64,000 nt of DNA, taken from contig CAZSRD010000001.1 of NCBI GenBank assembly GCA_964609455.1, positions 70,920 through 134,919 of the forward strand. The letters run 5' to 3'. Both the position numbers and the translations under genes were made by a program. The DNA comes from an uncultured Methanosarcinales archaeon (GTDB taxonomy: Archaea; Nanobdellota; Nanobdellia; Woesearchaeales; JACPBV01). This document shows positions 55,708 to 64,000 of the stretch, piece by piece (positions within the stretch are counted from its first letter, which is position 1; every line of letters begins with the position of its first letter). Below the pieces are notes generated by a model. The model had not been told where the DNA came from. It saw only the letters and a list, made by a program, of their open reading frames with translations, and did no database searches.

Positions 55708-56550
55708 TCATTTCAATCTTTTCCTATAGGTATTAGCAATCATCTTTTCATCTTTTTTAACTCTTCTTTCAAGTTTCTTGATATCTTCTTCAGGAGGCAG
55801 TTCTTCTGGTTTTATTCCTCTCTTGGATAATAAGCCCCTTACTTCCGCATTATTCCTTACATGTTCGCCAGTTATTCTATCTTCACCTTCAAGATTATCT
55901 TTCTTTACATTAAAATTAGTGATTTCTGTAGCTAGATTCTTTGCTGTGATAGTGATTGTTGGAAGAAAATCTGCTAAAGGCCTGTTCTTATGGATTTTAA
56001 GCTTACTTTTCATCATGGCAGTAGTATAACCTCCAAATAATGCTTTATCCCCTTTGCTTCTTATTCTTGCAAATCCTGCTTCATCAACTCCCTTTTCATA
56101 GATTAGCTTAGAAAGCTCTGTCTCAGATGCCACTAATTTCTGCCTTGCACTTAATCTTTCAATTAGTGCAATCCTTTCTTCAATCAATTCTTGTTTTCTT
56201 GTTTGTACTGCAAAATAACTTTGAGCAAAAGCTATCTGCTCTTTTCTAGGATCTCCGTTTTGAGCAATTAAATAACATGCATATCTTGTAAGCATGATAT
56301 CCTCAATTTCCCTCTCTGCTTCAGAACCAATCTTGACCTTTTTCCTGATGTCAGGAAAATGGTCGCTTACCTCCTGTCCCGAGTTCCTGCAGGATTCTTT
56401 TGCTTTGGCAATTACATTTAGAAAATTCTCCCATTTATTATACCCTAATAACTGCTGCAAATCTCTTGCAAACCAAAACTCTATGCCATCAGCTTCATTA
56501 GCATAATCCTCAAAGGATTTTCTAAGTTTTATTATAATCTCTTTTTTCAT
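55708..56550 (-). CDS. DinD / RhuM-family (DNA-damage-inducible protein D-like) protein, a common mobile-element cargo
   Basis: N-terminus IIKLRKSFEDYANEADGIEFWFARDLQQLLGYNKWENFLNVIAKAKESCRNSG matches the conserved DinD/RhuM N-terminal block. 280 aa. Confidence 0.6.
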   Translation of the reverse strand: MKKEIIIKLRKSFEDYANEADGIEFWFARDLQQLLGYNKWENFLNVIAKAKESCRNSGQEVSDHFPDIRKKVKIGSEAEREIEDIMLTRYACYLIAQNGDPRKEQIAFAQSYFAVQTRKQELIEERIALIERLSARQKLVASETELSKLIYEKGVDEAGFARIRSKGDKALFGGYTTAMMKSKLKIHKNRPLADFLPTITITAKNLATEITNFNVKKDNLEGEDRITGEHVRNNAEVRGLLSKRGIKPEELPPEEDIKKLERRVKKDEKMIANTYRKRLK

Positions 56551-59542: not shown

Positions 59543-60053
59543 TTTTTTACCTCCTCAGTTTATTGCTACTCTTCGTTTTTCAACTGAACCAACAATCCGC
59601 TAAGCTCCTTCTTATAAGCCTCTAACTTACTCTGCTTCATCCCTTTTAGCCTAGCGTCCTGTATATTATGGATATCCCATTCTAACAAAGAGATTGATTT
59701 CCTAAGCTCGTATATCCTATCGCTGGTTGAGATTGTTTTTTGCATTTAGATGCACCTTAAAACCGTGACTTTTAGCTGTTTTTAATCAGTTATTCTGCCC
59801 TAAGAAAAAGTAGTATTATTTGTTCGGGTTTATGTTTTTCTCCTTTTTATTATCTGTTGGTTCTCTAAGCTTCCTTACTATGAATTTGCCTAATGCTTAG
59901 AATATTACCTTAAGCCTGTATAAGGCCGGATATATTTAAGCTTTTCTAAAAGGCAGTTTCAAAAGCAGAAAAAGCCCCTTTCTTTTTTCAGCTTTGAGAT
60001 TACATTTTAATTTCAAAAGCTTTTTAAACACCCAATAATTCTACAAGTATTAG

Positions 60054-61037
60054 GTGGTTTTAATGACAAAGAAGATCAGTTTATTGGCTGGAACATCTAA
60101 TTTAGAGCTAGCTAAGGAAATATCTTCACACCTAAAGGTAGAACTAACGCCTATAGAGGTTAAGAACTTTAATGATGGGGAGGTATATGTGCATATTGAA
60201 AAGAGTGTAAGGGGCTCTACTTTGTTTATAATCCAATCTACTTCTCCTCCAGTAAATGACAAGCTGATGGAACTTTTGCTGATTATTGATGCCTGCAAAA
60301 GGGCTTCTGCAAAAGAGATTAATGTTATTGTGCCTTATTATGGCTATTCAAGGCAGGATAGAAAAGCTCTGCCAAGAGAGCCAATATCTGCTAAATTAGT
60401 GGCTAATTTGATTGAAGCAGCAGGAGCAGATAGGTTAGTTACTTTTGATTTGCATGTGGACCAGATCCAGGGATTTTTTGATATACCTGTTGATAATTTG
60501 GAAGCAGTATCCTTGATTGCTAATTATCTCATAGATAAAAAATTAAAGGATGTTGTTGTAGTTTCTCCAGATGTTGGCGGGGCAAGGAGAGCAAGAAGAT
60601 TAGCTAAGATATTAGATGTAAATATTGCAATAATAGACAAGAGAAGGCCAGCACATGGTGTTGCAGAGATAATGAATATTATAGGAGATGTAAAAGATAA
60701 GGATTGTATTTTATTTGATGATATAATTGATACAGCAGGCACTATATCAAATGGCGCTAAGGCTTTAAAAGAAAGCGGGGCAAGGAATATTTATGTGGCA
60801 GCAACACATGCTTTATTCTCAGGACCTGCTGTTGAAAGACTACAAGATGATGCAATTAAAGAGATTATAGCCACAAACACAATCGAAATACCTAAAGAGA
60901 AGATATTTAAAAAGTTAAAAGTTATATCTTTGGCGCATTTATTAGCTGATTCGATAACAAAGATCTATGAAGGCACGCCAATGGGCATTCTTTTTGACGA
61001 TTTGTATAACAAAATAAAGAAAAAAAGGCCACTATAA
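60054..61037 (+). CDS. prs: Ribose-phosphate pyrophosphokinase (PRPP synthetase)
   Basis: PYYGYSRQDRK, the PRPP-binding VVVSPDVGG and DDIIDTAGT. 327 aa. Confidence 0.9.
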   Translation: MVLMTKKISLLAGTSNLELAKEISSHLKVELTPIEVKNFNDGEVYVHIEKSVRGSTLFIIQSTSPPVNDKLMELLLIIDACKRASAKEINVIVPYYGYSRQDRKALPREPISAKLVANLIEAAGADRLVTFDLHVDQIQGFFDIPVDNLEAVSLIANYLIDKKLKDVVVVSPDVGGARRARRLAKILDVNIAIIDKRRPAHGVAEIMNIIGDVKDKDCILFDDIIDTAGTISNGAKALKESGARNIYVAATHALFSGPAVERLQDDAIKEIIATNTIEIPKEKIFKKLKVISLAHLLADSITKIYEGTPMGILFDDLYNKIKKKRPL

Positions 61038-61504
61038 TGAAAAAAGAAGAACATAAGGCAGAAAATAGCTCTACTTCAAAAGGTTCTGAAGAAAGAGAAT
61101 TACAAGAAAAGTATATTGAAATGAAAATACTAGAGGAACAGATGCAGCATATGCAGAAACAAGCTCAAGTTGTTGAGCAACAATTGATGGAAATGATGTC
61201 AACAGTACAGAGTTTAGAGGAGTTTAAGAAAACAAAAATAGGAGATAAGGTTTTAGTTCCGATAAGCTCAGGAATTTTTGCAAAAGCAGAATTAAAAGAT
61301 AATACACAGTTCCTGGTTAATGTTGGGGCAGATATTGTTGTAAGCAAGGATATTGAATCTACTAAAGCGCTTATACAAAAACAGGTTGAGGAATTGAGTG
61401 AATTACAGAATAAGGTAATGATGAACATACAGAAAATGTCTTTGAAAGCAGCTAGTATAGAAGAAGAATTGAGATATTTGGCTTCTAAAGTGCAAAATGT
61501 TTAA
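61037..61504 (+). CDS. pfdA: Prefoldin alpha subunit
   Basis: Coiled-coil / beta-hairpin (KVLVPISSGIFAKAEL) / coiled-coil architecture. 155 aa. Confidence 0.75.
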   Translation: MKKEEHKAENSSTSKGSEERELQEKYIEMKILEEQMQHMQKQAQVVEQQLMEMMSTVQSLEEFKKTKIGDKVLVPISSGIFAKAELKDNTQFLVNVGADIVVSKDIESTKALIQKQVEELSELQNKVMMNIQKMSLKAASIEEELRYLASKVQNV

Positions 61505-62795
61505 ATTCTTAAAAGAAAAATTAAAACTGGGTATTAAGAATATTTCTAATAAGATTGAGGAAGAAGGAGTTACAGAGGAAACTGTAGTAGAGAAGCCTGT
61601 AGAGGCTCCTGCTGAGAAGAAAGGTTTTTTTTCAAGGCTACGAGAGAGATTTACTAAAGAGAAGATAGAAGAATTTCCAGAAGAAGAAGCTGTTGAAGAG
61701 AAGGTTGATGTCAAGGATGAGGTTGAGCAATACCAGAAGAAAGAAGAGCTGAAAGAGCAGGAGAAGGAATTAGAGGAGAAAGAAGAAAAAATAAAAGAGA
61801 AGGTAGAGAAAAAGGAAATTCCAAAAATACAAGAATTAATGGAGAAACAGGAAGAGGAAAAGAAAGTTGAGGAGATAAAGAAAGTAATTGAAGAGCCTAA
61901 GATTGAGGAGCCTGAAAAAAGGGGTTTTTTCAGAAAGATAAAGGAAAGGATTACAACCAAGAAGATAAATGAAGAACAATTTGATAAGATATTTTGGGAG
62001 CTGGAGCTGGCTTTATTAGAGAATAATGTTGCTGTAGAGGTTATTGAGAAAATAAAAGATGACTTAAAGCAGGAGCTTGTTGATAACCCATTACCAAGAG
62101 GAAAAATAGAAGAGGTTATCTTAAACACATTAAAGTCGTCAATTGAACAGATACTTAATGTTAAGTCATTTAATTTATTGGATGAAGCTAGAGAAAAGAA
62201 ACCTTATGTCATATGCTTTATAGGAATAAATGGCTCAGGAAAAACAACAACAATAGCTAAGATGGGCAGAATGCTTTTAGACAATGGATTTTCAGTTATT
62301 TTAGCTGCTTCAGATACATTCAGGGCAGCTGCAATAGACCAATTACAGCATCATGCTGATAAATTAGGGGTTAAGCTGATAAAGCATAACTATGGCTCAG
62401 ATCCAGCTGCTGTTGCTTTTGATGCTATAAAACATGCAAAATCAAAGAATATTGATGTTGTTTTGATTGATACTGCTGGAAGGATGCATAGTAATGTTAA
62501 TTTAACAGATGAAATGAAGAAAATTGTTAGGGTAGCTAATCCTGATTTGAAAATATTTGTTGGTGAGTCAATAACAGGAAATGATTGTGTTGAGCAGGCT
62601 AAAAAGTTTGATGAGGCAATTGAGCTGGATGCAATAATATTGTCAAAAGCAGATGTTGATGAAAAAGGGGGGGCTGCTATTTCTGTTTCTTATGTTACAC
62701 AAAAACCCATTATTTACATAGGTACTGGACAGGAATATAAAGATTTAGAAGCTTTTGATGCATCTATTATTATGAATAGTTTAGGGCTTGCTTAA
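61497..62795 (+). CDS. ftsY: Signal recognition particle receptor FtsY (acidic A-domain plus NG domain)
   Basis: GINGSGKTTT P-loop, DTAGR, and the SKADVD/GGAAIS motifs. The N-terminal Glu/Lys-rich domain has two GFF(S/R)+ amphipathic repeats. 432 aa. Confidence 0.85.
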   Translation: MFKFLKEKLKLGIKNISNKIEEEGVTEETVVEKPVEAPAEKKGFFSRLRERFTKEKIEEFPEEEAVEEKVDVKDEVEQYQKKEELKEQEKELEEKEEKIKEKVEKKEIPKIQELMEKQEEEKKVEEIKKVIEEPKIEEPEKRGFFRKIKERITTKKINEEQFDKIFWELELALLENNVAVEVIEKIKDDLKQELVDNPLPRGKIEEVILNTLKSSIEQILNVKSFNLLDEAREKKPYVICFIGINGSGKTTTIAKMGRMLLDNGFSVILAASDTFRAAAIDQLQHHADKLGVKLIKHNYGSDPAAVAFDAIKHAKSKNIDVVLIDTAGRMHSNVNLTDEMKKIVRVANPDLKIFVGESITGNDCVEQAKKFDEAIELDAIILSKADVDEKGGAAISVSYVTQKPIIYIGTGQEYKDLEAFDASIIMNSLGLA

Positions 62796-63463
62796 TAGAA
62801 TTCGATTTCTTCTTCTAAATAGATTCCTTTATGAAGCTTAACTGGCCTCCAATTGTCTATAACTAATTCTGCATCTAACCATTCTGCAAGCTCTTCCGGG
62901 TTGCCTATTGTTGCTGATAAAGCAATTAACTGCATATTTTTCAAAAGTTTTCTTAAGATTGTGATAAGTATCTCTAATGTTGGGCCTCTGCTTACATCGT
63001 TCATCATGTGGACTTCATCAACTATAACAGTAGCTACTGAACTTAACCATGGTGTATGGTGCCTTATTAAAGAATCTAGTTTTTCTGCTGTGCAAATAAT
63101 CAGGCCGTAATCTGCCAAATATGGGTCTGCAGAGTCCAGGTCTCCAATCGAGAGCGCTATTCTTACAATATGCCCGTATCTTTTCTTGAAATCCTTGAAT
63201 TTTTCATTGGCTAAAGCTTTTAATGGAACTATGTAGATTGCCTTTCCTTTTCCCTCTAAGATGTTTTTTATTGCTGCTAACTCAGCAATTAATGTTTTTC
63301 CAGAAGCAGTTGGTGTGCATACCAATAAGTTTTTGTTATTTAAGAGGCCATGCTTAACTGCCTTTTCCTGCGCAGGCCTCAATTCTTTGATTTCTTTGTC
63401 AAGTATATTGAATAATTCATTTGGAAGCTCTTTTTGGATTGATTCTAGGTTCATTATAAACAA
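62792..63463 (-). CDS. Hel308/Ski2-like helicase N-terminal RecA1 domain only (truncated gene or fragment)
   Basis: Q-motif LRPAQEKAV, motif I TPTASGKT, motif II DEVH and motif III SAT are present, then DNWRPV. The ORF stops at 223 aa. The downstream sequence is the convergent ftsY. Confidence 0.6.
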   Translation of the reverse strand: MFIMNLESIQKELPNELFNILDKEIKELRPAQEKAVKHGLLNNKNLLVCTPTASGKTLIAELAAIKNILEGKGKAIYIVPLKALANEKFKDFKKRYGHIVRIALSIGDLDSADPYLADYGLIICTAEKLDSLIRHHTPWLSSVATVIVDEVHMMNDVSRGPTLEILITILRKLLKNMQLIALSATIGNPEELAEWLDAELVIDNWRPVKLHKGIYLEEEIEFY

Positions 63464-63591
63464 AGATTAATTGAGTTAATATAAAGATTTCTAAAAAATC
63501 AGTAATTTTTTAGGACCTAAAAATTCATTTTGAATTTTTAGATTTCTACTAAAACACAAGATTTAAATATATTTTAGTTAAATATTGTATT

Positions 63592-64000
63592 ATGTTAGAA
63601 TTGAGAAAAGATTACATCTTAGATAGGTGGGTTATTGCTGCTTCTGTCAGGGGTAAAAGACCTAAGGAGTTCAAACAAGAGGGTAAAGCAACTGAACCAA
63701 AGTTATGTGTTTTCTGCCCTGGAAATGAGCATTTAACTCCGCCTGAGATTGGGAGAGTTGAGAAAGATGGCAAGTGGGTTTTAAGGTGGTTTCCTAATAA
63801 ATTCCCTTTTGTTGAGCAGAAAGGAAGTGCTAGAGTGAAGACAAAGAATAAATTTTTTACTTCTGCTGCTGCATATGGAAAACATGAGGTTATTGCAGAC
63901 ACAAATGATCCTAATAAGCAGCTATGGGATATGCCTCAAAGCCATATTAAACTTCTTTTAGATGTTATTAAACAGAGGATTACCAGTTTAGAAAGATTGA
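63592..64000 (+). CDS. galT: Galactose-1-phosphate uridylyltransferase (class I HIT), 3'-truncated by the window edge
   Basis: Hand translation MLELRKDYILDRWVIAASVRGKRPKE...CVFCPGNEH... is the GalT N-terminal zinc-site pattern. The frame is open to nt 64000. Confidence 0.7.
   Translation, partial: MLELRKDYILDRWVIAASVRGKRPKEFKQEGKATEPKLCVFCPGNEHLTPPEIGRVEKDGKWVLRWFPNKFPFVEQKGSARVKTKNKFFTSAAAYGKHEVIADTNDPNKQLWDMPQSHIKLLLDVIKQRITSLERL

What the first reader, a model, noticed from the sequence alone, without database searches (positions are those of the whole stretch)
62792..63463. Hel308/Ski2-like helicase reduced to its first RecA domain
The ORF contains the Q-motif, motifs I, Ia, II (DEVH) and III (SAT), then terminates at residue 223. 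The convergent ftsY gene lies immediately downstream and overlaps by 4 nt.

The second RecA domain, winged helix and ratchet domains are absent from this locus. It is either a gene fragment left by a rearrangement or a stand-alone half-helicase.
Basis: seen in the sequence. Interest (0 to 1): 0.5.

Follow-up and report, generated by a model that had tools for sequence, protein, structure and literature searches.

The report
N-terminal subunit of split Hel308 helicase
This short gene is neither a broken remnant nor an assembly error but the conserved front half of a DNA-repair helicase (Hel308) that a large group of tiny DPANN archaea encode as two separate, unlinked genes.

Summary
ORF 62792-63463(-) encodes only Hel308 domain 1 (Q, I, Ia, Ib, II DEVH, III SAT) and overlaps convergent ftsY by 4 nt. 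The real start is probably the ATG at 63454, giving 220 aa.

It is not a decaying fragment. More than 200 protein clusters, 57-100% identical to each other and 219-223 aa long, all keep motifs I, II and III. Non-synonymous divergence is 0.10-0.17 where synonymous sites are saturated. The position next to ftsY-prefoldin-prs is conserved, and the DNA is identical in four independent assemblies.

A complementary family of stand-alone C-halves (482-533 aa: RecA2 motifs IV-VI, winged helix, ratchet, HhH) exists under the same Woesearchaeota/Nanoarchaeota labels. It starts about 5 residues after the point where the N-halves stop, and no intein is present. One MAG carries both halves at unlinked loci (CMO93_06280 and CMO93_02465). 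Each half family forms its own clade in neighbour-joining trees (N-halves weakly supported), and both share the same nearest full-length relatives. Other DPANN groups keep a full-length gene.

Best reading: this is the RecA1 subunit of a two-piece Hel308 that assembles non-covalently. The C-half of this window's own genome was not located; it is not in the 64 kb. This is a new variant of a known kind (DPANN split genes), of moderate interest.

The parts
62792..63454 (-). Coding sequence of the Hel308 N-half: 220 aa from the ATG at 63454, identical to database protein P0001, stop codon at 62792-62794. The mechanical ORF from the TTG at 63463 adds 3 codons that no homologue has.
63368..63382 (-). 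Q-motif region, LRPAQ (residues 25-29).
   Evidence: Read from the sequence. R26 and Q29 are invariant in 60 N-halves.
63293..63316 (-). Motif I (Walker A), TPTASGKT (residues 47-54).
   Evidence: Read from the sequence. [AG]SGKT is present in 210 of 210 N-halves.
63008..63019 (-). Motif II (Walker B), DEVH (residues 146-149).
   Evidence: Read from the sequence. DE[VIL]H is present in 210 of 210 N-halves.
62909..62917 (-). Motif III, SAT (residues 180-182).
   Evidence: Read from the sequence. Present in 210 of 210 N-halves.
62795..62851 (-). C-terminal tail, WRPVKLHKGIYLEEEIEFY (residues 202-220). It comprises the inter-domain linker and a beta-hairpin which, from general knowledge of Ski2-like helicases, belongs to the start of RecA2 in full-length Hel308. 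It is the proposed docking element for the C-half.
   Evidence: W202, R203, P204, V205, L207 and G210 are invariant, and Y212, E218 and F219 are at least 90% conserved. The AF2 model shows strands at 210-213 and 216-219, with pLDDT of about 78-85 for the last 20 residues. In the full-length model of P0122 the hairpin at 209-221 precedes the loop 222-228, where the split lies.
63478..63492 (-). Archaeal BRE/TATA-like element, AGAAATCTTTATATT, ending 24 nt upstream of the ATG. It is the gene's likely own promoter, with a short or absent leader.
   Evidence: Read from the sequence. The same element at the same distance is seen upstream of N-halves in L005, L008 and L013. A similar element lies upstream of C-halves in L061, L062, L064 and L112. 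Promoter function is inferred, not shown.
61497..62795 (+). Convergent ftsY (SRP receptor), whose stop overlaps the N-half stop by 4 nt. It is context, not part of the helicase.
   Evidence: The synteny N-half >< ftsY-prefoldin-prs is conserved in L005, L006, L008, L013, L047 and L141.

Best explanation
The ORF encodes the N-terminal subunit of a naturally split Hel308 (Ski2-like SF2) helicase. A single gene fission in an ancestor of a large Woesearchaeota/Nanoarchaeia clade cut the gene in the loop that follows the first beta-hairpin after the RecA1-RecA2 linker.

The N-gene kept RecA1 (Q, I, Ia, Ib, II, III) plus that hairpin, and sits next to ftsY. The C-gene encodes the rest of RecA2 (motifs IV-VI), the winged helix, the ratchet domain and the HhH domain 5. 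It lies elsewhere in the genome and has its own promoter-like element.

Shown: there are two complementary, conserved families, both under constraint, and both occur in one genome.

Inferred: the two polypeptides associate non-covalently, with the conserved C-terminal hairpin of the N-half completing the RecA2 sheet of the C-half. This would rebuild the composite ATP site (Walker A/B from N, motif VI arginines from C) and a normal 3'-5' Hel308 motor for replication-fork and recombination repair.

Also inferred: this window's own genome carries such a C-half outside the 64 kb.
For: (1) N-half family. 120 of the 120 best hits are 211-274 aa (median 220, most 219-221) and 71-100% identical. Another 90 came from a second query. 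All 210 keep GKT, DE[VIL]H and SAT.

(2) Purifying selection. Against L006, L008, L013 and L047, pN is 0.10-0.17 and pS is 0.70-0.90.

(3) C-half family. 115 of the 119 further hits listed (those under 600 aa; 482-556 aa, median about 518) carry Helicase_C, HTH_61, Helicase_dom4_arc and HHH_5 but no DEAD domain. All 115 keep TP[TS]LAxG and GR[AS]GR.

(4) Complementary break. N-halves end at P0122 residue ~223 and C-halves start at ~229, with no extra sequence.

(5) Same genome. N-half P0460 is CMO93_06280. C-half P0366 is CMO93_02465, on NYYQ01000029.1 of GCA_002686855.1. Both exact proteins also occur on different contigs of the same samples: ERZ908509, ERZ842108 and ERR599037.

(6) Distribution. 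Of the best 80 GTDB-species loci, 43 are stand-alone C-halves with no N-part in the upstream sequence held (about 3 kb in most loci, under 1 kb in about ten). The other 37 are full-length genes, from Aenigmatarchaeota, Pacearchaeota, Micrarchaeota, Nanohaloarchaea and others.

(7) Single origin. The halves are monophyletic against full-length proteins (N in 17 of 30 bootstraps, C in 28 of 30). Both share the same nearest full-length clade, P0122/P0271/P0272.

(8) Structure. AF2 of P0122 (pLDDT 89.8) places the break in loop 222-228, after the hairpin at 209-221. The extreme C-terminus of the N-half is conserved.

(9) Expression signals. Both gene types have BRE/TATA-like elements about 24 nt upstream of the ATG.

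(10) Precedent. Split Lhr helicase and split reverse gyrase are known in Nanoarchaeota (PMC3655853, Table 1).
Against: - The C-half of this window's own genome was not found. It is absent from the 64-kb window and from about 10 kb beyond it, and the rest of the 151-kb contig and assembly could not be read.
- Only one same-genome pair was demonstrated. Four other pairing attempts hit different assemblies.
- Physical association, ATPase activity and helicase activity of the two pieces are untested.
- Bootstrap support for N-half monophyly is modest (17 of 30), and the trees are simple neighbour-joining trees.
- That the hairpin docks onto RecA2 rests on general knowledge of the Ski2-like fold, not on coordinates inspected here.
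Confidence: 0.82

Rival explanations
1. Autonomous half-helicase. The 220-aa RecA1 protein has acquired a function of its own (for example nucleotide-dependent binding or regulation) and does not need the C-half. In this particular genome the C-half may be lost.
For: It has its own promoter-like element and is never adjacent to the C-half. The partner was not found for this genome.
Against: By general SF2 mechanism, RecA1 alone lacks the motif VI arginines needed for hydrolysis. A complementary C-half family is co-distributed in the same clade and keeps its half of the ATP site in 115 of 115 members. The tail that would be pointless without RecA2 (WRPV...EF) is among the best conserved segments. 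Both halves are present in the CMO93 MAG.
Confidence: 0.1
2. Gene fragment or pseudogene left by a rearrangement that put ftsY against a truncated Hel308.
For: The ORF stops exactly at a domain boundary and abuts a convergent gene with a 4-nt overlap.
Against: Length, motifs and synteny are conserved in more than 200 clusters down to about 57% identity. pN is far below pS. In relatives the spacing to ftsY varies, or another gene intervenes, yet the ORF ends at the same residue.
Confidence: 0.02
3. Artefact: an assembly collapse, a frameshift or a mis-join at the junction with ftsY truncates a full-length gene.
For: None beyond the abrupt end of the ORF.
Against: The gene and the junction are identical in four independent assemblies from four samples: two ENA, one Logan and one JGI. 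The same architecture is seen in dozens of unrelated MAGs. No C-terminal coding remnant appears in any frame downstream.
Confidence: 0.01
4. The halves are rejoined covalently, either by a split intein (protein trans-splicing, as for N. equitans DNA polymerase) or by RNA trans-splicing.
For: Intein-sized Hel308 homologues of 1,100-1,260 aa exist. Trans-splicing is known in Nanoarchaeota.
Against: The N-half ends and the C-half starts within about 5 residues of each other on the full-length sequence, with no intein-N (about 100 aa) or intein-C (about 35 aa) extension. The C-half has an ordinary Met start. No Rfam RNA family matches 60000-64000.
Confidence: 0.03

Closest known systems
Full-length archaeal Hel308/Hjm (A. 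fulgidus 2P6R, P. furiosus 2ZJ2, S. solfataricus 2VA8)
   Same: The N-half aligns end to end with domain 1 plus the first strands that follow it (E 1e-52 to 1e-61; residues 6-222 against Af Hel308 3-218), with all motifs present. The partner family carries the Hel308-specific winged helix, ratchet and HhH domains.
   Different: Here the motor is encoded as two polypeptides from unlinked genes. The cut lies after the first beta-hairpin following the RecA1-RecA2 linker, so the ATP site must form between two chains.
Split 'large helicase-related protein' (Lhr) of Nanoarchaeota: NEQ003/NEQ409 and Nst 172/239
   Same: An SF2 DNA-repair helicase of a DPANN archaeon encoded by two separate genes (PMC3655853, Table 1).
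   Different: It is a different helicase family (Lhr, not Hel308). It is split at different sites in the two nanoarchaeal genomes, which suggests recent, independent events. The Hel308 split is at one site and is shared by a whole clade, including 43 of the 80 best-scoring GTDB species loci.
Naturally split reverse gyrase of N. equitans (NEQ318/NEQ434)
   Same: A DPANN split gene whose products were reported to reconstitute activity as separate subunits (Capp et al. 2010, cited in PMC3491384; not read here).
   Different: From memory, that split separates the helicase-like and topoisomerase modules rather than cutting through the helicase motor. C/D-box sRNAs flank that split (PMC3491384), and no Rfam RNA family matches here.
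Closest full-length relatives (P0122, P0271, P0272; 724-726 aa, metagenomic)
   Same: 59-60% identical to the N-half and about 50% identical to the C-halves. They are the nearest full-length relatives of both half clades.
   Different: They are single genes, and P0271 is not next to ftsY or prs, so they do not reveal how the fission happened.

Membership tests
Hel308 (Ski2-like SF2 helicase) | RecA1 domain with Q motif and motifs I, Ia, Ib, II (DExH) and III | tested here: met
   Pfam DEAD E 3.7e-33. NCBIfam Hel308 models align over positions 1-217. PDB Hel308/Hjm chains match at E about 1e-52 to 1e-61. The motifs are read directly in the sequence.
Hel308 (Ski2-like SF2 helicase) | RecA2 domain with motifs IV, V and VI on the same polypeptide | tested here: not met
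   The ORF ends at residue 220. No Helicase_C match. Nothing in the window. The domain is present instead in the separate C-half family.
Hel308 (Ski2-like SF2 helicase) | Winged-helix domain 3, ratchet domain 4 and HhH domain 5 | tested here: not met
   Absent from this ORF and from the window. Present in the C-half family (PF20470, PF21280, PF14520).
Hel308 (Ski2-like SF2 helicase) | Score above the NCBIfam equivalog cut-off | tested here: not met
   281 bits against a cut-off of 887 (NF002654), and 225 against 1200 (NF040935). These are partial matches only.
Hel308 (Ski2-like SF2 helicase) | DNA-dependent ATPase and 3'-5' helicase activity | not testable with these tools
   Needs biochemistry on N, on C and on N plus C.
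Split (fissioned) gene encoding a two-subunit enzyme | Two ORF families that together cover the full-length protein without overlap or loss | tested here: met
   N-halves end at P0122 ~223 and C-halves start at ~229.
Split (fissioned) gene encoding a two-subunit enzyme | Both parts present in the same genome | tested here: inconclusive
   Met for MAG GCA_002686855.1 (CMO93_06280 and CMO93_02465), and for co-occurrence in three samples. Not shown for the genome of this window.
Split (fissioned) gene encoding a two-subunit enzyme | Both parts conserved | tested here: met
   N-half pN 0.10-0.17 against pS 0.70-0.90. Motif retention is 210 of 210 for N-halves and 115 of 115 for C-halves. Mean pairwise identity is 72% for N-halves and 61% for C-halves. 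No dN/dS was computed for the C-halves.
Split (fissioned) gene encoding a two-subunit enzyme | Independent expression signals for each part | tested here: inconclusive
   BRE/TATA-like elements lie about 24 nt upstream of both gene types. No transcript data were available.
Split (fissioned) gene encoding a two-subunit enzyme | The subunits associate and reconstitute activity | not testable with these tools
   No multimer prediction or experiment was available. The inference rests on the conserved tail and on the position of the split.

The most novel reading that the evidence does not exclude
The fission is not merely tolerated but is used. Because the ATP site exists only when the two separately transcribed subunits meet, assembly of the Hel308 motor could be a regulated step, for example through stoichiometry or damage-dependent expression, or through the RecA1 subunit serving more than one partner. 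If so, this clade would offer a natural, evolutionarily stable, two-piece SF2 motor held together by a donated beta-hairpin. A related possibility is that the split arose by duplication followed by complementary degeneration, which the prs or prs-like gene lying convergent to each half hints at.
Probability: 0.12. Interest if true: 0.6.

Novelty: new variant of a known kind. Interest (0 to 1): 0.42.

Why it matters
Hel308/HELQ is a conserved repair helicase, and it is also the motor used in some nanopore sequencing chemistries. A clade-wide natural version has RecA1 and RecA2 on different polypeptides. This implies that the SF2 ATP site can probably be built stably in trans, and it identifies the loop where the fold tolerates a break.

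The finding gives ready-made subunits for studying inter-domain coupling. It adds a widely shared example of a single-site split to the DPANN split-gene list, which so far rests mainly on Nanoarchaeum. It also warns annotators that 'DEAD/DEAH box helicase' (220 aa) and 'hypothetical protein' or 'helicase-related protein' (about 500 aa) in Woesearchaeota are two halves of one enzyme. Surveys that require both domains in a single protein would miss Hel308 in this clade.

Tried and rejected
- **C-half in the window.** Pfam scans of ten large ORFs, motif V/VI pattern searches and tblastn with full-length relatives found nothing.
- **C-half next to the N-half in relatives.** There is none within ±3-10 kb in L001-L008, L013, L047 or L141.
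- **Pairing by proximity of NCBI accession numbers** was unreliable and was dropped.
- **JGI scan with C-half P0384** did not recover the contig carrying N-half P0082.
- **Genome scan with artificial N+C chimeras, used only as a search device.** The tool drew its two patterns from the C part only, so no N-half loci were returned.
- **A second look-up of P0001** again withheld the NCBI contig, so the window's assembly accession remains unknown.
- **Synteny as a clue to the origin of the split.** The nearest full-length gene, P0271, is not near ftsY or prs. The 71%-identical gene shared between the window and C-half locus L066 is a Bro-N (mobile-type) protein, not synteny.
- **Rfam scan of 60000-64000 for C/D-box or other RNAs at the split border** gave no match.
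- **Literature searches** found no description of a split Hel308.
- **A first phylogeny script** timed out and was rerun in a lighter form.

Full report
**1. The observation**

ORF 62792..63463 on the minus strand (223 aa from a TTG) is real. It is convergent with a gene at 61497..62795 that Pfam identifies as FtsY (SRP54_N plus SRP54 GTPase). The two stop codons share the sequence TTAA at 62792-62795, an overlap of 4 nt.

Pfam sees only the DEAD/ResIII helicase ATP-binding domain. Four NCBIfam Hel308 equivalogs align with the whole protein but only over their first ~217 of 674-739 positions. The scores (177-281 bits) are far below the full-length cut-offs. Solved Hel308/Hjm structures match at E = 1e-52 to 1e-61 over their residues 3-218. 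The Q motif and motifs I, Ia, Ib, II (DEVH) and III (SAT) are all present.

All homologues start at the ATG 9 nt downstream of the TTG, so the protein is probably 220 aa. Nothing resembling RecA2, the winged helix or the ratchet domain occurs anywhere in the 64 kb.

**2. It is not a relic or an artefact**

A search of 5.8 billion proteins returned 120 best hits that are 71-100% identical. Nearly all are 219-221 aa long, and where named they are labelled Woesearchaeota or Nanoarchaeota. A second query added 90 more.

All 210 half-length proteins retain GKT, DE[VIL]H and SAT. Their mean pairwise identity is 72%. Against four relatives, synonymous sites are saturated (pS 0.70-0.90) while pN is only 0.10-0.17.

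The same gene, with identical DNA and the same junction to ftsY, occurs in four independent assemblies from four samples. In more distant relatives the N-half keeps its place: enolase ... N-half, convergent with ftsY-prefoldin-PRPP synthase. The spacer varies, from an overlap, to a 268-nt gap, to an inserted gene, yet the ORF always ends at the same residue. Assembly collapse and pseudogene decay are therefore excluded.

**3. The missing half exists as its own gene family**

The nearest full-length protein found by an exhaustive profile search is P0122 (726 aa, 60% identical). Searching with its residues 224-726 returned more than 110 proteins of 482-556 aa. They carry Helicase_C, the Hel308 winged helix (PF20470), Helicase_dom4_arc (PF21280) and HHH_5, but no DEAD domain. 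They come from the same taxa and are mostly annotated 'hypothetical protein'. All 115 keep motif V (TPTLAxG) and motif VI (GRAGR).

In a joint alignment the N-halves stop at P0122 residue ~223 (...WRPVKLxxGIYLxxEIEF). The C-halves begin at ~229 (M..KI....D..LALDT..KQALVFVNT). The break is complementary, with about 5 residues lost and no intein-like insertion.

**4. Same genome, different loci**

N-half P0460 is named CMO93_06280. C-half P0366 is named CMO93_02465. They share one locus-tag prefix, so they come from one MAG (GCA_002686855.1; the C-half is on NYYQ01000029.1), about 760 locus-tag steps apart.

The two exact proteins also co-occur on different contigs in three samples (ERZ908509, ERZ842108 and ERR599037). 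No N-half locus has a C-half within 3-10 kb, and no C-half locus has an N-part in the upstream sequence held.

**5. Distribution and origin**

A scan of one genome per GTDB species found at least 587 relatives. Of the best 80, 43 are stand-alone C-halves. These are labelled Woesearchaeota, Nanoarchaeota or Nanoarchaeia, apart from several third-party (TPA) bins labelled 'Methanosarcinales' and a few generic or other labels. The other 37 are full-length genes from Aenigmatarchaeota, Pacearchaeota, Micrarchaeota, Nanohaloarchaea, Bathyarchaeia and others, plus three 'Woesearchaeota'.

In neighbour-joining trees the halves are monophyletic relative to full-length proteins (N in 17 of 30 bootstraps, C in 28 of 30). 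Both have the same nearest full-length group, P0122/P0271/P0272. This fits one ancient fission.

How the fission happened is unclear. The nearest full-length gene is not next to ftsY or prs. A prs-like paralogue lies convergent to the C-half in many genomes, while the canonical prs lies beyond ftsY next to the N-half. This hints at duplication followed by complementary loss, but it proves nothing.

**6. Where the cut falls, and the likely mechanism**

An AF2 model of P0122 (pLDDT 89.8) shows the last RecA1 strand at 199-202 and a beta-hairpin at 209-216 and 219-221. A loop follows at 222-228, then helix 238-248 and the motif IV strand at 253-256. The fission lies in that loop.

From general knowledge of Ski2-like helicases, the 'RPVxL' strand opens the RecA2 domain. 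The N-half therefore carries a hairpin that belongs structurally to the other subunit. In the model of the window protein alone the hairpin forms at 210-213 and 216-219, with lower confidence than the core. Its residues W202, R203, P204, V205, L207 and G210 are invariant, and Y212, E218 and F219 are at least 90% conserved among 60 N-halves.

The inference is that the hairpin docks into the C-half and tethers the two chains. Walker A/B from the N-half and the motif VI arginines from the C-half would then form the ATP site, and the assembled heterodimer would work as an ordinary Hel308. Each gene has a BRE/TATA-like element about 24 nt upstream of its ATG, consistent with separate transcription. 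Association and activity are untested.

**7. Comparison with what is known**

Split protein genes are a recognised trait of reduced DPANN genomes. In N. equitans and Nst1 they include reverse gyrase and the SF2 'large helicase-related protein' (PMC3655853, Table 1; PMC6349945). Dph2 is split in Woesearchaeota (PMC6349945).

I found no paper describing a split Hel308. The 2024 survey of archaeal Ski2-like helicases and a 2026 Hel308/HELQ review do not mention one. This is therefore a new variant of a known kind. It is unusual in that the cut goes through the helicase motor and is fixed at one site across a large clade.

**8. Limits**

- The C-half of this window's own genome was not located, because the rest of its contig and assembly could not be read.
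- Only one same-genome pair was demonstrated.
- The trees are simple neighbour-joining trees.
- The docking of the hairpin was not checked on coordinates.

**Verdict**

The 'fragment' reading is rejected. The 'stand-alone half-helicase' reading is refined to 'RecA1 subunit of a two-gene Hel308' (confidence about 0.8). Interest is moderate.

Noticed in passing
L003:106-975 (ENA ERZ27248895, same population as the window): In this assembly an IS-type integrase (rve, 289 aa) sits directly upstream of the identical N-half gene, where the window and L001/L002 have the GalT-like gene. This is a structural variant within the population.
   Followed up: no
L011:9556-11088 (JAHWHZ010000001.1, a 697-kb 'Woesearchaeota' contig): A 510-aa protein with bacterial sigma-70 regions 1.2, 2, 3 and 4 is encoded about 2 kb from a Hel308 C-half on an archaeal contig. 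It could be horizontal transfer or a chimeric contig.
   Followed up: no
L011, L014, L074, L102, L118, L119, L122, L134, L135 (downstream of the C-half): A PRPP-synthase-like paralogue, 25-38% identical to the window's prs at 60054-61037, lies downstream of the C-half in many genomes, convergent and directly adjacent in most. The canonical prs lies in the ftsY-prefoldin-prs block convergent to the N-half.
   Followed up: partly
L047:6816-8522 and equivalents (marine Woesearchaeota): Here FtsY is 568 aa and carries an N-terminal HD domain (PF01966) fused to SRP54_N and SRP54. In the window, FtsY (61497-62795) has a lysine/glutamate-rich N-terminal extension of about 140 aa instead. FtsY length varies from 336 to 571 aa among the relatives.
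   Followed up: no
window 61403-62128 (-): This 241-aa Ser/Phe-rich ORF is antisense to the K/E-rich 5' part of ftsY. It is most likely a shadow ORF of the low-complexity region rather than a gene.
   Followed up: no
window 55708-56550 (-) and L066:104-934: A Bro-N domain protein (typical of viruses and mobile elements) in the window has a 71%-identical homologue about 2 kb upstream of a C-half in another genome. A shared mobile gene is more likely than synteny.
   Followed up: partly
L061, L064, L066, L071, L074, L087, L088 and other CAY*/CAZ* records: Many TPA_asm bins titled 'uncultured Methanosarcinales archaeon' carry the Woesearchaeota-type stand-alone C-half, up to 86% identical to one from a Woesearchaeota MAG. 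Their taxonomic labels look wrong.
   Followed up: no
one search hit list (for example P0131, P0134, P0136, P0153, P0196): Numerous Hel308 homologues of 1,100-1,270 aa match the query only over their first ~220 residues. They may contain inteins or be fusion proteins.
   Followed up: no
L011:4221-4475: An 84-aa ORF with a Diphthamide_syn hit lies near the C-half. It may be a piece of the split Dph2 reported for Woesearchaeota (PMC6349945).
   Followed up: no
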